From NCBI GenBank assembly GCA_001899235.1, contig MKVR01000052.1, forward strand, positions 98,944 through 162,943: a DNA stretch of 64,000 nt. The letters are read 5' to 3'. The stretch is from Nitrosospira sp. 56-18. GTDB taxonomy: Bacteria > Pseudomonadota > Gammaproteobacteria > Burkholderiales > Nitrosomonadaceae. Within the stretch, counting starts at the first letter, position 1, and the number at the start of each line of letters is the position of its first letter. Below the pieces are notes generated by a model, which was not told the DNA's origin, ran no database searches, and worked only from the letters and a program-made list of their open reading frames with translations. Both the position numbers and the translations under genes were made by a program. Positions 23,109 to 29,321 of the stretch are shown piece by piece.

Positions 23109-23792
23109 TTATCCCCGCATCAACCTCGCAACAGTGTCGTATAGCCACGCAACCAGCGCCTGGGCATTGGCGCCGTGATGTATTTCGCGGTGGCAGTTAG
23201 GGCACAGCGCGACCGCGTTGGTTACGGTATCGCCGCCCCCTTCCGCCAGTGGCTGCAGATAATGAAGTTCCAGGTAGGGCAGGCCGTCAGTGCCCCGGAA
23301 GGGCGCCGGTTTTTCGCAGCCTTCGCAAACTCCCTTCGCCTGCTGTAGAACCCAGGCCTGGACCAGGGGATTGCGTTGAAATTGTGTCACGCTGATCCGC
23401 CTCGATTCCAGGACCGGCATGCCATCCGGCTGGGCAAGATTTTTTTGACCGGCTCCTTCCCGCGCCGCGATCTCGAAAGCCACGATGGGCAGATCGTTAT
23501 ATCCGCCGATTTCTTCCAGCAATGCCTCGATCCTCGCCGCAATATCGGTGCCGACATTTTTGGCGGGCTTGACGCCCATCAGCCAGCTTCGCCCGACCAG
23601 CGAAAGCACGTATGAAATATTCTGCATCCTGTTTTCGTATGCTTTTTCGCTCCGGCCAAACGTTCGCGCGAGTTTTTTGCAGTACTGCTTCTTTACGAAA
23701 ATGTTTCCTGCCCGCTCGTGCTCCAGCATTTCGACGTAGGCTTCCACCGTCGCTCTCAGCTCTTCGCTATCCCAGTCTTTGTCCGTCGCCAT
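23109..23792 (-). CDS. HNH endonuclease, McrA-like C-terminus
   Basis: CEGC..APF..DGLPYLELHY..PLAEGG.DTVTNAVALCPNCHREIH; start MATDKDW. Confidence 0.85.
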   Translation of the reverse strand: MATDKDWDSEELRATVEAYVEMLEHERAGNIFVKKQYCKKLARTFGRSEKAYENRMQNISYVLSLVGRSWLMGVKPAKNVGTDIAARIEALLEEIGGYNDLPIVAFEIAAREGAGQKNLAQPDGMPVLESRRISVTQFQRNPLVQAWVLQQAKGVCEGCEKPAPFRGTDGLPYLELHYLQPLAEGGGDTVTNAVALCPNCHREIHHGANAQALVAWLYDTVARLMRG

Positions 23793-23956
23793 ATACGCCC
23801 ATACCGTGCCCCGGCCCCGCTCCACTCGAAAAAAAACTCTCATCCCAATAATCCCTGGACATACACTAATGCCTTGCCGCATTTTCTGCAACGCCGCGTT
23901 TTGTGAAGCGGCAAGCAGGCTCCTGTATTCCTGGCCGCGAAATCGAGGAAAATCCG

Positions 23957-24385
23957 ATGAAAATTGATGTGAAAACCGGAAACTGCCTTATCACCCTCGC
24001 CGCATTCATCCTTGTCCTGGCAAGCGGAATGACTGCTGTTGCGCAGGACAGCGAAAATTCCTCCGGACGACAGAAAAGCGCGGCAACACCAAAATCCTCC
24101 AGAATCTCCCATCCACCTTGCGGAGGGCCGGGCGCTATTCCCTGCCCTGGCGGGATGAGATGCATCGACGACCCCACAGACAGCTGCGATCCGGAAAAAG
24201 ATGGAATCAACTGTCCCGGCCTTTGCGCGGCGGGGGTCTCCGTCAGCAAAGCAAAACAGTCCTGCGGCGGAACCACCAGCATTACCTGTCCCGCGGGCAT
24301 GGCCTGCGTGGATGACACGGCAGATAACTGCGATCCCACGAAGGGTGGCATCGATTGCGCAGGGATGTGCGCAGGCAAGCCCTGA
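23957..24385 (+). CDS. Secreted Cys-rich protein with two 6-Cys repeats
   Basis: Signal peptide; two units CGG-x5-CP-xGM-xC-xDD-xxD-xCDP-xK-xGI-xC-xG-xC. Confidence 0.8.
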   Translation: MKIDVKTGNCLITLAAFILVLASGMTAVAQDSENSSGRQKSAATPKSSRISHPPCGGPGAIPCPGGMRCIDDPTDSCDPEKDGINCPGLCAAGVSVSKAKQSCGGTTSITCPAGMACVDDTADNCDPTKGGIDCAGMCAGKP

Positions 24386-24514
24386 TCCATTCGCTCTTTC
24401 CGGTTGTAATACGAAAAAACCATAAGCTTATCGAATTATCGTATAAATCCTGCAACAAACCCTCGCTACAATTCAAGCTCCTACTTTTGTTTTGTTCACC
24501 AGCAGGAGCATGCA

Positions 24515-24745
24515 ATGTCGCGATATATTGTTTATGTGCGAACCGAAGAGGGCCATATCATGCGGATGAAGAATGTAGTCTACGGGTTTCAGCATGCGAT
24601 AGAAGACTCCTACGGCGCCATGGCTCCCTACACCCACGAAGAGCCACTCGAAGGATTTCCCGAGTCAGTAGTGTTGTGGGCTTCCAGTACGGGGCCTGCC
24701 GTGGGCATCGCCCCGCTTGCCTCTCATTTCGCTAGGGCCTGTTAA
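24515..24745 (+). CDS. Small hypothetical protein, paralog 1 of 4
   Basis: CAGGAG RBS; YxxYxR..G..R / HEEPLEGFPES.V.WA..GP..GIAP shared with the other three copies. Confidence 0.8.
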   Translation: MSRYIVYVRTEEGHIMRMKNVVYGFQHAIEDSYGAMAPYTHEEPLEGFPESVVLWASSTGPAVGIAPLASHFARAC

Positions 24746-25009
24746 TACTTGTTTCGCGCCCACGCTGCTGCGCGAAAAAGCGTGAGGGCAAGGCGCGAAG
24801 CGCAGGGCATAGCAGACCTATGGCCAAGCTTTGCAACGCCGCACCCGCGTTTTTTTCGTGCGCAACCCGGAGGGACGGGACGGAATTTCATCCAACCCAT
24901 CGTTACTCGCCGCTTGCAGGGCTCACTCTGCTGCGCGGCTCGTGCTCCGTTCCGGCTGAAATTCGCTACCACTCTGGGTCGTGCGCGCGAAACAAGTATT
25001 AACAGGCCC
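24735..25009. mobile_element. MITE-like element with 25-bp terminal inverted repeats
   Basis: GGGCCTGTTAATACTTGTTTCGCGC (24735-24759) and its exact reverse complement (24985-25009); no credible ORF inside. Confidence 0.75.
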
Positions 25010-25202
25010 CAGGTAACAACGCCTCGATTGACGGGCTGCGGGTTGCCCGCAATTATCCCGATCTTCCCACACCCGCTTTTGCGCCCGAAAAACCCGATGG
25101 TATCCAGGAAGGGAATTTCGCCTGCATCCCCTCTTCCCTTCCTTACGCCTGTCCGAGGGAGAGATGAATACAAACTCTGCTTCACCCGATGTTTTAAACG
25201 AA

Positions 25203-25412
25203 ATGACCGGATACGTGCTCTATATCCGCACCGGGGAAGGAACTGTCCGGCGCAGGAGCAGTCATCCTGTTTTCTGGTGTTATGAATCGCTCATTCCTTA
25301 CCGGCACGAGGAACTGCTGAGCGGATGGCCTGAAGCGAGAGTATTCTGGGCAAGGCCAACCGGCCCCAGCATAGGTATTGCTCCCCTTCGCGGCCTTTCC
25401 AGACTGGATTAG
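25203..25412 (+). CDS. Small hypothetical protein, paralog 2 of 4
   Basis: MTGYVLYIRTGEG..HEELLSGWPEARVFWARPTGPSIGIAP. Confidence 0.8.
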   Translation: MTGYVLYIRTGEGTVRRRSSHPVFWCYESLIPYRHEELLSGWPEARVFWARPTGPSIGIAPLRGLSRLD

Positions 25413-25737
25413 CCGAGCGTCCATACCTCCTCCACACGCGAGCCGTCTGTATCGCACTTGCTTCTGTTCCTGCTTCCTGCTGGTGGACAGGGCCGACGGA
25501 CCGACGGTTGGCCCACGCCAATCCGGCCTGCTTCGCCATGTCCACGCACCAGGCGTCTTTCCCCATATCCTGGCGCCCATCGCGATGCCGCCTCCGCTCC
25601 AAAGCAGCACGATGGAACTAAAACCCTGGCACGATAGGGCTATTCCCCCTACTCAGTGCGAAAGATTTGTTCTACTGTTTGTTCAGACTCTTTTTACGTA
25701 GAACCTTTTTTTCGCAATGCTGATTCGAGGAGGACAT

Positions 25738-25947
25738 ATGGCGCACATATATATCCCCTATCTCCGAACTGCCGATGGCACGATCAAGCGCGTTGCCGAT
25801 GCTTTTTTCGATTCTCCTGACGACCGTCTTGGGCCTTTCCTGCATGAGGAACCGTTGACCGGGTGGCCGGAATCGAAGGTGGTATGGGCAAAGAAGTCAG
25901 GCCCGACCGTAGGTTTTGCCCTCTCAGGCAACTCATCCCCGGACTGA
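25738..25947 (+). CDS. Small hypothetical protein, paralog 3 of 4
   Basis: GAGGAGG RBS; MAHIYIPYLRTADG..HEEPLTGWPESKVVWAKKSGPTVGFA. Confidence 0.8.
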   Translation: MAHIYIPYLRTADGTIKRVADAFFDSPDDRLGPFLHEEPLTGWPESKVVWAKKSGPTVGFALSGNSSPD

Positions 25948-25975
25948 TCGCCCAGGCTCCTGCGCGCTTCACTTC

Positions 25976-27124
25976 TTATCGGGCATTGCCCGGCTGGTCG
26001 CTGACGGAACCCGTACCCTCTCCCGCGCCTTCACCGCTGGCGGGAACCCGTTTTTTCAAGGATTCCTCAGGCATTTCACTGCGTGGAATCGTGCCGCCTG
26101 TCCCCGGTCTCACGCCCCGCTGGACCCGATCCCTTCCCAGTCCGCTGTCCGTAGCGGGCGAGCGCTCAAGCCCGCGCTCTCCCCCCTTCACATCAGTTTG
26201 CCTGCCAAAGCCCGGCTGCGAACCCGATTCCTGCTCCGACTCCGCCGCCCGTCCTTTTACATCGGTTTTCCTGGCAGCGGCATTTTCCGCACCGCCTGGA
26301 TAAGGCATGGCAGTGGTAGTTGCCTCTTTTCCTTTCGCCCCAGGCTGCCTGATAGCCGCCCTTTCGGTGCCGGGCGCAAGATCATCCGAAGTCCTGGCGC
26401 CACCGTAGATGCGCTTCGGCTCCCCGGGCATGTGCTTTGTCCCCGACACGGTCCGTCTCTCTTCCCTTCCCGTTCCCGTTGCACCGCCATAAGGACGGTA
26501 GGGTTGCTGCAAGTCCTGCGAGCCGGTTGCCGGATTCCGCGAGTCGGATGAATACTGGCCTGCTGCCGGGCCACCGTATGTGTGCAACGGATCGACAGGC
26601 GCATTTCGCGAATCCATTATCGACTGGTTCGTATTGGTGCCTGTTGCACCATATGCACCATAACCGCCGGCCGTCCCGTAAGCGCCATAGCCGGACCCGC
26701 CATAGGTGCCGGAGGCACCCTGGCTTCCATAGGCGCCGCTTTGTCCGAGGGGAGTGTTTCTCGGATCGGCGGGATATTGCCCGCCCGCGCCGCCGTACGC
26801 GCGCTGGGGATTAACGGATCTGTTTCGCCGCTCGTACGAATCGTAGGGGTATTGGCCACCTCCAGTCAGCCCCCTGTCCGCATCCCGTTGCCCAACCGGA
26901 CTATTCCGGGTATCCGTCCCATATCCTGCCCCCACGGAACCTCTCTGGGTCATGGGAACGTTTCTCACATCTTCAAACTGTCCCGCAGGCGCCCCTCCCT
27001 GCCCCTGGCTGCCAAATTGCCCGGCCCCCGGTATTTGCGCGCACACCACGCCTGCCATTCCACCGCACAGGCCGGCAAGCAGGGCCATGCGTGCTCCACG
27101 GATGATAATGGAAGAACTCTTCAT
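25976..27124 (-). CDS. Secreted Gly/Tyr-rich low-complexity repeat protein
   Basis: Signal peptide ending VCA; repeated GQY..D.RN.P and YGG motifs. Confidence 0.7.
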   Translation of the reverse strand: MKSSSIIIRGARMALLAGLCGGMAGVVCAQIPGAGQFGSQGQGGAPAGQFEDVRNVPMTQRGSVGAGYGTDTRNSPVGQRDADRGLTGGGQYPYDSYERRNRSVNPQRAYGGAGGQYPADPRNTPLGQSGAYGSQGASGTYGGSGYGAYGTAGGYGAYGATGTNTNQSIMDSRNAPVDPLHTYGGPAAGQYSSDSRNPATGSQDLQQPYRPYGGATGTGREERRTVSGTKHMPGEPKRIYGGARTSDDLAPGTERAAIRQPGAKGKEATTTAMPYPGGAENAAARKTDVKGRAAESEQESGSQPGFGRQTDVKGGERGLERSPATDSGLGRDRVQRGVRPGTGGTIPRSEMPEESLKKRVPASGEGAGEGTGSVSDQPGNAR

Positions 27125-27578
27125 AATGCACCTCGCCTAGATAGCATTGACCTCAACATAATATACGTCTGCCCGATGTTCCGTTCGGATGCGCACGATA
27201 TTGGATATCGGAAAGCGCGAATGCTCCCCATGGTGGTTTTCATCAATGAGTATATGCCTGAACGGCTGATTCTGATACCCATTCTATTCGAGCGGGGGTG
27301 AAAACCGCCTTCCGAAAAACCATGTCAGCGCCGCTGGAAGAAAAATCCCACTTTGATAATACGAAAGTGCCAGAAGAAACTTGCAATCCCGATCATTGGC
27401 ACTATGCTGGCAGACAACAGTGATGCCGGTATCGGTCTGCAAGTCTGGCGCCGCGATAAATTTCCGTAAAAACAGTGGCTAGCCTATGGCGCAAGGCCAC
27501 GGGCGATCTTTCCAGCAACCGGCTCACCCCCTCAAGTATCCGAGCCTATAGCACCTAATAATGCGGAGAGACCATAAA

Positions 27579-27845
27579 ATGGCGGAATATGTCGTATATA
27601 TGAGGCAGCAGGACGGCAGGATCGAGCGGGTGGACTACGCCTTTGCGAATTACCCGGATGGCCCGGTACAGTTTTATGTGTATGAGGAACAGCTAATGGG
27701 TTTTCCAGAATCGAAGGTTTTCTGGGCAGCGCACTCCGGACCCAGCCTGGGAATTGCGCCTCTCGTCCCTTGCACGAACAGCGCCAATACTGCCGACCAC
27801 CCCGGATCATCCTCCAGTGGCACGCCGCCAGCACCAGGGAGCTAA
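27579..27845 (+). CDS. Small hypothetical protein, paralog 4 of 4
   Basis: GGAGAG RBS; MAEYVVYMRQQDG..YEEQLMGFPESKVFWAAHSGPSLGIAP. Confidence 0.8.
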   Translation: MAEYVVYMRQQDGRIERVDYAFANYPDGPVQFYVYEEQLMGFPESKVFWAAHSGPSLGIAPLVPCTNSANTADHPGSSSSGTPPAPGS

Positions 27846-28030
27846 AACCCGGGCCTTGCATTTCCACCGCAAGCCGGATAGCACTTTGTACTGGTTTTGT
27901 GGCCGGGAGAACCAGTGTGTGATACCGCACAGCATGAACCGCCCACAAGCATTAAGCTGGTTTCCAATGCCGTATCGAAAGCTACCTGATGCGGCAAACC
28001 ACTTTAAACTTTTTTGACAGGAGATGAACA

Positions 28031-28216
28031 ATGAATAAAGATCAAGTGAAAGGAACGGCCAAAGACATCGCAGGAAAAATCCAGGAAGAAGCTGGAAGGG
28101 TGGTAGGAAGCAAAGAGCAGGAAGCCAAGGGACTTGGCAAACAGATCTCCGGCAAGGCCCAAAAGAAATATGGGGACGCCAAGGAAGCCGTCAAGGACGC
28201 GGCAGACAAGCTTTAA
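28031..28216 (+). CDS. csbD: CsbD family stress protein
   Basis: MNKDQVKG..K...GKIQE.AG...G...EAKG...Q..GK.QK.YGD.KE pattern. Confidence 0.92.
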   Translation: MNKDQVKGTAKDIAGKIQEEAGRVVGSKEQEAKGLGKQISGKAQKKYGDAKEAVKDAADKL

Positions 28217-28239
28217 GCCGTCTTCCTCATCTGCCTCCC

Positions 28240-28265
28240 AACCCGCTTCGGCGGGTTTTTTGTTT
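28240..28265 (+). terminator. Rho-independent terminator
   Basis: AACCCGC-ttcg-GCGGGTT + T run. Confidence 0.85.
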
Positions 28266-28316
28266 GCCGTTCCTAGAGAAGCGCTGAGTCGTAAATTCAT
28301 TGCATAAAAAATCCCC

Positions 28317-28391
28317 GTCATTCCGGACGCCGCGCCAGCGGCGAGGCGGAATCCAGAGTTTTTTCAAGCTACTGGATTCTCGCCCTTCCAC
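28317..28391 (+). repeat. GTCATTCC-type REP-like element, copy A
   Basis: GTCATTCCGGACGCCGCG..GGAATCCAG..TTCAAGCTACTGGATT; shared with 29135-29213 and 32969-33047. Confidence 0.75.
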
Positions 28392-28422
28392 ACCGTTTCA
28401 CCAGAGCGATGGATCGACCGAA

Positions 28423-28848
28423 TCATTGCACAGGCACAGGCGGGTCACGGGTTTCGCCCGCGACGAACTTGATGGCATCGCCAGTGCATATCACCACTTT
28501 CGAACAATCATATTTGGCGCTGGGGTTCCGGGGAACCTCGCATTGCAGATTGATGATTCCGTCCGCGCCCGCCTGTTGCGCCACATATTGGGCCTGGAGG
28601 ATCGCATCCCTTTTTGTCGCAGCGCGGCCCCAGAATGAATTCTTGCAGGAAACACCTTCGATCCCTTTCAGGATAGCAAATTTCTGCCGGGTGATTTTCG
28701 CCTGGTTGTAGAGTTTTACCGCGCGGACAGCGTTGAGCTGCTCAGGCGGCAAATCGTCCATTTTGATACTCGGCGCCCGCGGCACCGAGTTGCAAGCGGA
28801 AATTCCCGTCACCAGAATGAAGATGATAGTGTGATTTCTGATAGTCAC
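28423..28848 (-). CDS. RcsF/YbjQ-like fold lipoprotein
   Basis: Lipobox ISA-C; IEGVSC..AI.QAQ.VA...GADGIINLQC..C...ICTGDAIK; start (GTG) uncertain. Confidence 0.55.
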   Translation of the reverse strand: MTIRNHTIIFILVTGISACNSVPRAPSIKMDDLPPEQLNAVRAVKLYNQAKITRQKFAILKGIEGVSCKNSFWGRAATKRDAILQAQYVAQQAGADGIINLQCEVPRNPSAKYDCSKVVICTGDAIKFVAGETRDPPVPVQ

Positions 28849-29134
28849 GAGCAGTTTCCGGGAACAGGCTGGTAGTCTAGAACAAACATCCGGTTCCGGA
28901 TCAATATCTGGCAAGGGGCGCATCTGGCAACTCATGGAATTTACCCCGATTCTGGATTGCTTCGTAAATCCCACAAACGATCCCATATTGATCGACAGTG
29001 ACCGGATAAATCCGGAATTCACCCGCTTTTCAGACAATCGAGCCAGGAGCAAAGTATAGGAGAGGTTCAGTGGAATGGGAATAAGCGGTGAACGGATGCG
29101 TGCACACCGGAGGCGGGATCCTCAGCTATTCCAT

Positions 29135-29213
29135 ATTGCCGCGAAAAGGGGAATTCAGTAGCTTGAAACAGCCCTGGATTCCGGATCATCGCTGGCGCGG
29201 CGTCCGGAATGAC
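29135..29213 (-). repeat. GTCATTCC-type REP-like element, copy B
   Basis: CAGTAGCTTGAAA..CTGGATTCCGG..GCGCGGCGTCCGGAATGAC; inverted relative to copy A. Confidence 0.75.
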
Positions 29214-29321
29214 GAAGGTTTCCTGGGCGCAAAACAAGTGTTGACAGGCCCTCCAAGACTGAATTCCCACACCTCGAGCGCGAAATTCCAGACCTTGTCG
29301 CCTTATTGTTAAAACCGGAAG

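What the first reader, a model, noticed from the sequence alone, without database searches (positions are those of the whole stretch)
24515..27845. Four dispersed paralogs of an unrecognised ~70-aa protein family
Seen: ORFs at 24515, 25203, 25738 and 27579 are all on + and three have a clear SD. They share Y-x2-Y-x-R-x3-G-x-(I/V)-x-R, a variable-length middle, then (H/Y)EE-x-L-x-G-(F/W)-PE-(S/A)-x-V-x-WA-x3-GP-x2-G-(I/F)-A. None has a signal peptide. Divergent middles with conserved ends indicate old duplications kept under selection. They are separated by a MITE, spacers and a secreted Gly-rich gene, and lie next to an HNH nuclease and a Cys-rich secreted protein. Inference: a diversified specificity array (immunity/antitoxin-like, phage-sensing or ligand-binding variants) or a lineage-specific regulator family. 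I recognise no known domain.
Basis: partly seen in the sequence, partly recalled or inferred. Interest (0 to 1): 0.72.

Follow-up and report, generated by a model that had tools for sequence, protein, structure and literature searches.

The report
New phage-related small protein family in Nitrosospira
The four small genes are real, selected paralogs of an uncatalogued ~62-residue protein family that among cellular genomes is found only in the soil ammonia-oxidiser Nitrosospira and otherwise only in uncultivated phages; its function is still unknown.

Summary
Four + strand genes (24515-24745, 25164/25203-25412, 25738-25947, 27579-27845) share a ~62-aa domain at 42-44% identity.

**They are coding.** dN/dS against syntenic orthologs is 0.05-0.20. 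Most family starts carry Shine-Dalgarno sites. AlphaFold models are confident (pLDDT 84 and 94).

**The family is uncatalogued.** No Pfam, NCBIfam, PHROGs or PADLOC hit, and no Foldseek hit in PDB or BFVD.

**Distribution.**
- Present in 36 of 43 Nitrosospira genomes, at 1-13 copies each.
- Absent from 108 other Nitrosomonadaceae, about 400 Burkholderiales and 400 other Pseudomonadota genomes.
- Distant relatives lie in the early/recombination regions of uncultivated tailed phages. One is fused to a NikA-like ribbon-helix-helix domain.

**History and layout.**
- The four copies belong to four old subclades.
- The "variable middle" is conserved within each orthologous lineage (dN/dS 0.23).
- The C-terminal tail is nearly neutral (0.64).
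- Copy 1 carries a family-specific promoter box and normally leads a two-gene pair. Here a MITE split copies 1 and 2.

**Function.** No toxin or defence partner recurs, so the immunity-array reading is not supported. My best inference is a set of domesticated phage-derived small binding proteins, possibly dimeric. The target is unknown.

The parts
24440..24476 (+). Family-specific promoter-like box (CGTATAAATCCTGCAACAAACCCTCGCTACAATTCAA; putative -10 TACAAT at 24467-24472), 38 nt upstream of copy 1
   Evidence: The position weight matrix built from 25 distinct instances carries 36 bits. This is the only hit of at least 14 bits in the whole own genome. In 434 kb of Nitrosospira loci, 43 of 43 hits of at least 18 bits lie just upstream of family genes or their pseudogenes. 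Transcription from it has not been tested.
24515..24745 (+). Copy 1 (76 aa, GFPE type). The core domain is intact. The last ~5 codons and the stop come from the MITE.
   Evidence: ORF and AGGAG SD. dN/dS 0.048 against the L024 ortholog. Tail LASHFARAC* here versus LASHPAGYQHLG* in L024. Falls in the c1 subclade.
24732..25012 (.). MITE inserted between copies 1 and 2, into the tail codons of copy 1
   Evidence: 33-nt inverted ends. Absent from the syntenic L024 locus. At least 3 near-full and about 15 partial copies in the genome. CTAG-like flanks.
25164..25412 (+). Copy 2 (82 aa from 25164; the domain starts at M14, i.e. 25203; GWPE type; basic, pI 8-9.6)
   Evidence: ORF. GAGG SD before 25164 and none before 25203. 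The extension is kept in orthologs and dN/dS is 0.20. In relatives this type is the second gene of a c1-led pair.
25738..25947 (+). Copy 3 (69 aa, GWPE type)
   Evidence: AGGAGGA SD. dN/dS 0.125. AlphaFold2 model pLDDT 84.3, pTM 0.72, six strands.
27579..27845 (+). Copy 4 (88 aa, GFPE type, with a 25-aa Ser/Pro/Thr-rich tail)
   Evidence: GGAGAG SD. dN/dS 0.124. Tails are nearly neutral family-wide (dN/dS 0.64).

Best explanation
The four genes are anciently diverged paralogs of a previously uncatalogued ~62-residue, mostly beta domain family.

What is shown:
- Among cellular genomes the family is confined to Nitrosospira, at 1-13 chromosomal copies per genome.
- Its only other relatives are single genes in the early (recombination/replication) regions of uncultivated tailed phages.
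- Each window copy is a stand-alone cytoplasmic protein with its own ribosome-binding site.
- Copy 1 carries a promoter box found only in front of family members.
- In relatives, the copy-1 type leads a two-gene pair. In this genome a MITE landed in copy 1's dispensable tail and separated it from copy 2.

What is inferred:
- An ancestor of Nitrosospira took the gene from a phage, and the host domesticated and multiplied it.
- The proteins act as small binding or adaptor modules, probably as homo- or heterodimers.
- The invariant face (Tyr8, Arg10, Arg18, the GWPE loop, Trp50, the G-x-A-P strand; copy 3 numbering) is the common scaffold or contact.
- The paralog-specific middle sets which cellular or phage macromolecule each copy engages.

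The target, and therefore the physiological role, is unknown.
For: Coding and selected:
- dN/dS is 0.05-0.20 at dS 0.33-0.66 against the syntenic array in L024.
- Over 23 independent close pairs, dN/dS is 0.10 in the core, 0.19 in the N-terminal part, 0.23 in the middle and 0.64 in the tail.
- SD sites precede most family starts.
- GC is host-like: 0.53-0.57 against a genome value of 0.559.

Folded:
- AlphaFold2 gives pLDDT 84.3 and pTM 0.72 for copy 3.
- It gives pLDDT 93.9 and pTM 0.77 for a phage member. The strand order is the same, with a helix in the middle.

Uncatalogued:
- No Pfam, NCBIfam, PHROGs or PADLOC hit for the four copies, and no Pfam or PHROGs hit for 74 diverse members.
- No PDB sequence match of note. 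No Foldseek hit at E<=0.001 in PDB or BFVD.
- Every source names the proteins 'hypothetical protein'.

Distribution:
- 36 of 43 Nitrosospira genomes against 0 of 108 from three sister genera.
- 0 of 400 Burkholderiales genomes in 168 genera.
- 0 of 400 Pseudomonadota genomes in 212 genera.
- A motif scan of one genome per 185,579 species returned only Nitrosospira-lineage loci.

Phage relatives:
- Ten IMG/VR contigs plus assemblies carry a member.
- Those contigs also encode portal, terminase, helicase, primase, Sak4 and tail fibre proteins.
- Same-strand neighbours include Sak4, RecE-like exonucleases, NinB/Orf, SSB and integrase.

Old paralogs: the four copies fall in four subclades, each nearest to genes of other genomes.

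Hints of dimerisation:
- Natural tandem-domain fusions exist in both clades (P0001, P0038).
- One member is fused to a NikA-like ribbon-helix-helix domain.
- Adjacent gene pairs recur.
- The window's copy 1 is acidic and copy 2 is basic.

Promoter box.
Against: - No expression data.
- No partner, ligand or phenotype is known. The function is inferred only from context.
- The direction of transfer (phage to host) rests on a weakly supported midpoint-rooted tree of 74 columns.
- The one 'viral' contig carrying a Nitrosospira-type member (L065) is a Nitrosospira chromosomal region beside a conserved phage-like cluster. It does not show that phages carry the host-type genes.
- Dimerisation has not been modelled.
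- Small beta folds are hard for Foldseek, so 'no structural match' is weak evidence that the fold is new.
Confidence: 0.45

Rival explanations
1. They are small nucleic-acid-binding proteins that work like cold-shock-type chaperones or as accessory factors of recombination. They would bind single-stranded DNA or RNA through the conserved aromatic and arginine residues on the beta strands.
For: - Tyr8, Arg10, Arg18 and Trp50 are invariant or nearly so and lie on or beside predicted strands.
- Phage members sit among SSB, Sak4, RecE-like and NinB/Orf genes.
- One member is fused to a DNA-binding NikA-like ribbon-helix-helix domain.
- The family forms a multi-paralog set of ~65-aa beta proteins with their own promoter, a layout I recall for csp genes (from memory, not tested here).
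Against: - Most members are acidic: median net charge -2.8 for the Nitrosospira type and -1.3 for the phage type.
- No Pfam match to CSD, OB or Sm families at E<=1.
- No Foldseek match to any nucleic-acid-binding fold.
Confidence: 0.2
2. They are host physiological or stress-response small proteins or regulators with no remaining link to phage biology, for example nutrient- or stress-induced modulators.
For: - c1-clade orthologs sit 35 nt upstream of a sulfate-binding-protein gene, near phosphate-uptake genes, in at least 11 Nitrosospira loci.
- The window array lies beside a CsbD stress-protein gene.
- A dedicated conserved promoter box exists.
- Neighbourhoods consist of ordinary chromosomal genes.
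Against: - The promoter box occurs upstream of no other gene, so it defines no shared regulon.
- Synteny with sbp may simply be inherited.
- No expression data.
Confidence: 0.2
3. One reading: a diversified array of immunity, antitoxin or phage-sensing specificity variants tied to a neighbouring nuclease or toxin.
For: - Several diverged paralogs are clustered in one 3.3-kb stretch next to an HNH nuclease gene.
- The ends are conserved and the middle differs between paralogs.
- The family is related to phage genes.
Against: - HNH adjoins the family in only 3 locus types.
- No recurrent partner in 434 kb of Nitrosospira loci or in phage loci.
- No PADLOC hit.
- The middle is under purifying selection within lineages (0.23).
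- Many genomes hold only lone copies.
Confidence: 0.06
4. The ORFs are not translated. The similarity would reflect a repeated DNA or RNA element.
For: None beyond the lack of expression data. The original N. multiformis annotation appears to have missed these genes (inferred from the accessions).
Against: - dN/dS is 0.05-0.20 with dS up to 0.66.
- The frame is open in about 120 of about 135 genus-wide matches.
- SD sites are present.
- Structure models built from the alignments are confident.
- No Rfam hit.
Confidence: 0.01

Closest known systems
Small accessory proteins of phage early/recombination regions (lambda Gam, Kil, Ral; T7 Gp5.9 and Ocr; anti-defence proteins); comparison from general knowledge
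   Same: The phage members are 60-75-aa, often acidic, stand-alone genes. They lie in blocks of small ORFs next to SSB, Sak4, RecE-like, NinB/Orf and replication genes.
   Different: No sequence or fold similarity to any of them: no PHROGs, PADLOC, PDB or BFVD match. Unlike those proteins, this family also has a vertically inherited, multi-copy chromosomal radiation in one bacterial genus.
CspA-type cold-shock proteins (Pfam PF00313)
   Same: Both are beta-rich cytoplasmic proteins of about 65-70 aa, acidic to neutral. Both have several stand-alone paralogs per genome, each with its own promoter and SD.
   Different: No PF00313 hit at E<=1. No Foldseek match to CSD or OB folds. No RNP1/RNP2 motifs. 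The family is genus-restricted, whereas CspA proteins are widespread in bacteria.
Orphan immunity-gene arrays of polymorphic toxin systems (CDI, Rhs, and colicin/HNH nuclease immunity)
   Same: A cluster of diverged small paralogs lacking signal peptides. An HNH nuclease gene lies nearby in this window.
   Different: There is no toxin gene or toxin C-terminal fragment in register with the copies. HNH is not a recurrent neighbour. Copies are dispersed genome-wide. The variable part is not fast-evolving.
MbtH-like proteins (Pfam PF03621)
   Same: Small proteins of about 70 aa defined by a few invariant Trp, Pro and Gly residues, which act as binding partners of larger enzymes.
   Different: No PF03621 hit, a different motif order, no NRPS genes nearby, and a mostly beta predicted fold.
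Lineage-restricted 'ORFan' gene families imported from phages
   Same: A taxonomically restricted family with no annotated homologs whose only outside relatives are viral. This matches the 'imported, not invented' view of ORFans (PMC13012023, abstract as listed).
   Different: This is not a strain-specific singleton. It is an old, genus-wide, multi-paralog radiation with conserved synteny, its own promoter box and strong purifying selection.

Membership tests
Any curated protein family (Pfam-A, NCBIfam, PHROGs v4, PADLOC-DB) | Significant match to the family's profile HMM | tested here: not met
   The four copies gave 0 families at E<=1 in all four libraries. The 74 diverse members gave no meaningful Pfam hit at E<=0.1 and no PHROG at E<=0.01.
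Cold-shock domain proteins (PF00313) | CSD profile match and a five-stranded OB-type barrel | tested here: not met
   No Pfam hit. Foldseek against PDB found nothing at E<=0.001 with either model, and the top hits had TM<=0.45.
Toxin-immunity or toxin-antitoxin pair | A conserved adjacent partner (toxin) gene that co-occurs across loci | tested here: not met
   Clustering of ORFs in 29 flanked loci found no partner shared across non-syntenic loci. HNH appeared in 3 loci only. Pfam content of five copy-rich regions is ordinary housekeeping. Phage loci share no partner.
Toxin-immunity or toxin-antitoxin pair | Neutralisation of a cognate toxin | not testable with these tools
   Needs co-expression assays.
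Known anti-phage defence systems | Match to a PADLOC model, or a location in a defence island | tested here: not met
   No PADLOC hit. Neighbours are glyoxalase, HNH, CsbD, RcsF-like, PEP-CTERM, NlpC/P60 and FeeM.
MbtH-like (PF03621) | PF03621 profile match and an NRPS neighbourhood | tested here: not met
   No Pfam hit. No NRPS domains were found among the neighbours scanned.
The new family itself (Y-x-Y-x-R...G-x-I-x-R...L-x-G-[WF]-P-E-x-x-V-x-W...G-x-x-x-G-x-A) | All four window ORFs match a profile built without them | tested here: met
   The phage-only profile A3 hits the four loci at E 2e-16 to 2.5e-14.
The new family itself | Protein-level purifying selection | tested here: met
   dN/dS is 0.05-0.20 for the four ortholog pairs and 0.10-0.23 over the domain in 23 independent pairs.
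MITE (the element at 24732-25012) | Terminal inverted repeats, no coding capacity, multiple copies, and absence from an orthologous empty site | tested here: met
   33-nt inverted ends, 94% complementary. 21 BLAST matches, including 2 other near-full copies. An empty site in L024.

The most novel reading that the evidence does not exclude
A phage early protein with a previously unseen small fold was captured by the Nitrosospira ancestor. It then radiated into a self-promoted set of paralogs that now act against phages, or control the same host target the phage protein attacks. Possible forms are decoys or inhibitors of a phage takeover factor or of a recombination/nuclease complex. That would be a new, single-gene, genus-specific conflict system built from a domesticated viral protein.
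Probability: 0.15. Interest if true: 0.75.

Novelty: new variant of a known kind. Interest (0 to 1): 0.5.

Why it matters
- Nitrosospira are major soil ammonia oxidisers, yet much of their genus-specific gene content is unannotated.
- This family is present in most Nitrosospira genomes in up to 13 copies. It is strongly selected and has its own promoter element, so it is likely to matter to the cell.
- It is absent from every domain catalogue and structure library searched here.
- It gives a clean, datable example of a lineage-specific gene family whose only outside relatives are phage genes. It also comes with a confidently predicted small fold that has no detected structural relative.
- It supplies an HMM and a 37-nt promoter box that can be used to annotate these often-missed small genes.
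- Knowing its partner could reveal either a new regulatory layer in nitrifiers or a new phage-host interaction module.

Tried and rejected
- **Catalogue and structure searches.** Pfam, NCBIfam, PHROGs and PADLOC gave nothing for the four copies. Pfam and PHROGs gave nothing for 74 members. A PDB sequence-profile search returned only chance-level hits. Foldseek of two models against PDB, and of one against BFVD, found nothing at E<=0.001.
- **Sigma-54 promoter before copy 4.** The site TGGCACTATGCTGGCA at 27397 is at chance level: 5 hits against 3.0 expected. The sigma-70 and terminator scans were also uninformative.
- **Shared regulon through the promoter box.** Rejected. The box occurs nowhere else in the genome and only before family genes elsewhere. 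By eye it fits neither a LexA box (CTG-N11-CAG rather than N10) nor Pho, ECF or sigma-32 spacing.
- **Prophage or island location in Nitrosospira.** Rejected. Copy-rich regions hold ordinary genes and a single transposase.
- **A Nitrosospira-type copy carried by a phage (L065).** Downgraded. That contig is chromosomal DNA 89% identical to the own genome, beside a phage-like cluster conserved across the genus.
- **A fifth copy hidden at contig ends of the own assembly.** Not found.
- **A second small family (MKKRRYIDLYGYT...) as an obligate partner.** Rejected. It is absent from the own genome.
- **More multidomain relatives.** A search with P0099 residues 1-65 found only P0099 itself.
- **Deposited plasmids and phages.** tblastn of copy 4 against both, and of P0063 against phages, gave no match.
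- **Tandem-fusion model.** A model of P0001 to test dimer packing was abandoned. MAFFT aligned all relatives to domain 1 only.
- **Rfam.** No hit in 23500-28500.
- **Literature.** Two full-text searches found nothing on this family.
Full report
**1.

The + strand carries four ORFs:

| Copy | Coordinates | Length | Note |
|---|---|---|---|
| 1 | 24515-24745 | 76 aa | |
| 3 | 25738-25947 | 69 aa | the listed ORF (76 aa) opens at 25717 |
| 4 | 27579-27845 | 88 aa | the listed ORF (94 aa) opens at 27561 |

- Copies 2-4 are 42-44% identical to copy 1. Twenty alignment columns are invariant: Y4, Y7, R9, G13, R17, E-E-x-L-x-G-x-P-E, V, W-A, G-P, G, A, L.
- A profile of the four finds exactly these four places in the 3.29-Mb, 99.9%-complete genome, at E 1e-33 to 1e-36.
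- Copies 1, 3 and 4 have textbook Shine-Dalgarno (SD) sites. Copy 2 has none at 25203. It has GAGG 5 nt before the upstream ATG at 25164, and that 13-residue extension stays open in orthologs.
  - HNH nuclease (PF01844) at 23109-23891 on the - strand.
  - A Cys-rich exported protein at 23903-24385.
  - A Gly-rich exported protein at 25976-27124 on the - strand.
  - CsbD at 28031-28216.
  - A MITE at 24732-25012.

**2. They are real, selected genes**

A Nitrosospira MAG (L024) has the same four genes in the same order, at 78-91% DNA identity.

Nei-Gojobori estimates for the four ortholog pairs:

| Copy | dN/dS |
|---|---|
| 1 | 0.048 |
| 2 | 0.20 |
| 3 | 0.125 |
| 4 | 0.124 |

dS for these pairs is 0.33-0.66.

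Over 23 phylogenetically independent close pairs from many Nitrosospira genomes:

| Region | dN/dS |
|---|---|
| C-terminal core | 0.10 |
| N-terminal hairpin | 0.19 |
| 'Variable middle' | 0.23 |
| Tail after the domain | 0.64 |

- The middle differs between paralogs but is conserved within each orthologous lineage.
- The tails are close to neutral.
It argues for settled paralog-specific roles rather than an arms race.
- GC and GC3 are host-like.
- Across 69 family starts, most have a GGAG-type SD 5-9 nt before an ATG that opens directly into the domain.

**3. Structure**

- AlphaFold2 with a 74-sequence alignment gives copy 3 pLDDT 84.3 and pTM 0.72, with six strands.
- A phage member, modelled from phage sequences only, gives pLDDT 93.9 and pTM 0.77. 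Strand order is the same and a short helix replaces the middle segment.
- Foldseek found nothing at E<=0.001 in PDB with either model, or in BFVD with the copy 3 model. The best TM-scores were about 0.3-0.5.
- A profile search of PDB sequences gave only chance-level hits.
- The fold may be new. Small beta folds are hard for Foldseek, and no AlphaFold DB library was available here.

**4. Not in any catalogue**

- Pfam, NCBIfam, PHROGs and PADLOC give nothing for the four copies at E<=1.
- None of 74 diverse members hits Pfam or PHROGs.
- Every source name is 'hypothetical protein'.
- The N. multiformis ATCC 25196 members are WP_041352558.1, WP_041352415.1 and WP_167535536.1. No accession from the original annotation is on record, so the genes seem to have been missed at first (inference).

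**5. Distribution**

An exhaustive HMMER search of 1.84 billion representative proteins finds 139 clusters at E<=1e-3 and 63 at E<=1e-10.

| Set searched | Genomes with the family |
|---|---|
| Nitrosospira | 36 of 43, at 1-13 copies each |
| Three other genera of the same family | 0 of 108 |
| Burkholderiales (168 genera) | 0 of 400 |
| Pseudomonadota (212 genera) | 0 of 400 |

- A motif scan of one genome for each of 185,579 species returned only Nitrosospira or Nitrosovibrio records and 'uncultured beta proteobacterium' MAGs.
- Deposited plasmids and phages have no match.

**6. Phage relatives**

- The weaker half of the hits form a separate clade.
- Members whose DNA I could fetch lie in uncultivated phage genomes:
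  - P0074 sits just before DUF1064 and the two terminase subunits.
  - P0099 sits opposite a GpA/Nu1 terminase.
  - Ten IMG/VR contigs carry a member.
- Those contigs also encode portal, large terminase, helicase, primase, Sak4 and tail fibre proteins.
- Same-strand neighbours within 3 kb include Sak4, an exonuclease, two RecE-like exonucleases, NinB/Orf, three SSBs and integrases. This is the early recombination/replication region.
- No neighbour recurs between unrelated phages.
- A profile built only from phage members hits the four window genes at E 2e-16 to 2.5e-14, so the homology is solid.
- Domain architectures:
  - P0074 has a C-terminal NikA-like ribbon-helix-helix domain (PF21983).
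  - P0087 and P0099 share an unknown C-terminal domain.
  - P0080, P0081, P0086 and P0102 have N-terminal extensions.
  - P0001 and P0038 are natural tandem duplications of the domain.

**7. History inside Nitrosospira**

- In the tree, the four window copies fall in four different subclades. Each is nearest to genes of other genomes, so the duplications predate species divergence.
- Copy-rich regions of other genomes contain ordinary chromosomal genes (ABC1 kinase, GGDEF/EAL, PEP-CTERM, Nramp, KaiC, TonB receptor, a tRNA synthetase) and one transposase. They contain no prophage.
- c1-clade orthologs lie 35 nt upstream of a sulfate-binding-protein gene in at least 11 loci.
- One apparent exception is the IMG/VR contig L065, which carries a Nitrosospira-type member. 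It is chromosomal DNA 89% identical to this genome's contigs C38 and C54.
- L065's portal gene is present in 37 of 43 Nitrosospira genomes at 66-95% identity. That phage-like cluster is a genus-wide feature, so L065 is not evidence for phage carriage.

**8. A family-specific promoter box and gene pairs**

- Upstream of many otherwise unalignable copies lies a 33-37-nt box, TAAAAAT-n-CTGYAAYAAA-n4-C-n-G-TAcaAT. Its TACAAT usually begins about 33-48 nt before the ATG.
- Its position weight matrix carries 36 bits.
- In the whole own genome the only hit of at least 14 bits is at 24440-24476, before copy 1.
- In 434 kb of Nitrosospira loci, all 43 hits of at least 18 bits precede family genes or their decayed remnants.
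- The box travels with the gene and is conserved far beyond its flanks. It defines no wider regulon.
- The spacing does not fit a standard -35/-10 pair, and I could not assign a sigma factor or regulator. The comparisons with LexA, Pho, ECF and sigma-54 patterns were made by eye or were at chance level.
- c1-type genes carrying the box are repeatedly followed, within about 60-170 nt on the same strand, by a second paralog with its own SD but no box. This is seen in L005, L023-L027, L036 and L070. The pairs are probably bicistronic.
- In this window, a multi-copy MITE with CTAG-like flanks inserted into the tail codons of copy 1. The tail changed from ...LASHPAGYQHLG* to ...LASHFARAC*, and the gap to copy 2 widened from 57 to 418 nt. 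The core domain is untouched.

**9. What it most likely is**

- Shown: a real, folded, selected, uncatalogued small-protein family. It is Nitrosospira-specific among cells, has phage relatives, consists of old paralogs, stands alone, and has its own promoter element.
- Inferred origin: capture of a phage early gene by the Nitrosospira ancestor, followed by domestication and radiation.
- Inferred action: small binding modules, possibly dimeric. The hints are the tandem fusions, the ribbon-helix-helix fusion, the gene pairs, and an acidic copy 1 beside a basic copy 2.
- The invariant residues would form the common scaffold or contact. The lineage-conserved middle would set partner specificity.
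- I put about 0.45 on this overall picture.
- Rivals:
  - About 0.2 on a nucleic-acid-binding role.
  - About 0.2 on a purely physiological or stress role.
  - About 0.06 on the immunity/antitoxin array.
  - About 0.01 on non-coding.

**10. Limits**

- There is no AlphaFold DB fold library and no multimer modelling.
- The tree has only 74 columns and weak deep support.
- The host taxa of the phage contigs are unknown.
- The genome search scores only a subset of first-look candidates in large genomes, so rare prophage copies elsewhere could have been missed.

Noticed in passing
G000:C38:3432-5504 (own genome, outside the window); L065:1444-5020: A phage-like portal and large-terminase cluster is present in 37 of 43 Nitrosospira genomes at 66-95% protein identity, mostly in a single copy. 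Several copies carry in-frame stop codons. It looks like a genus-wide domesticated or decaying prophage, or a GTA-like element.
   Followed up: partly
L051:5279-5551(-), L050:5682-5879(-), L042:5391-5594(-), L037:1604-1807(+), L029, L031, L033, L039: A second uncharacterised small ORF family (~65 aa, MKKRRYIDLYGYTxDEFDRLLE...) recurs within 0.2-2.5 kb of family copies in 8 Nitrosospira loci, in either orientation. It is absent from this genome.
   Followed up: partly
window 24732-25012; also 29224-29252, and the arms 28309-28379 / 29151-29221: The MITE family has at least 3 near-full and about 15 partial copies in the genome. One of its ends recurs at 29224-29252. A separate 71-nt inverted repeat (85% complementary) brackets the RcsF-like lipoprotein ORF at 28423-29052.
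   Followed up: partly
L028-L036, L046, L048 (e.g. L034:5001-6420): c1-clade family genes sit 35 nt upstream of, and co-oriented with, a sulfate-binding-protein gene in at least 11 Nitrosospira loci. PstS-like and porin genes lie nearby. They may be co-transcribed.
   Followed up: no
window 23903-24385 (+) and 25976-27124 (-): Two exported proteins have no Pfam match. One is Cys-rich with an internal duplication (C..GG..I.CP.GM.C.DD..D.CDP.K.G.DC.G.C). The other is a 382-aa Gly/Tyr/Arg-rich low-complexity protein, whose gene is the only part of the syntenic block that no longer aligns with L024.
   Followed up: no
window 27397-27412 (+): A sigma-54-like site, TGGCACTATGCTGGCA, lies about 170 nt upstream of copy 4. 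The window holds 5 such one-mismatch sites against 3.0 expected by chance, so it carries no weight on its own.
   Followed up: yes
G011 (N. multiformis ATCC 25196): C1:2326874-2327092, C1:1306234-1306449, C1:1873580-1873771: The type strain's family members carry only later RefSeq or re-sequencing accessions (WP_041352558.1, WP_041352415.1, WP_167535536.1). This suggests the original annotation missed them, so studies built on that annotation would not report them. Several genomes also hold decayed copies with in-frame stops.
   Followed up: partly
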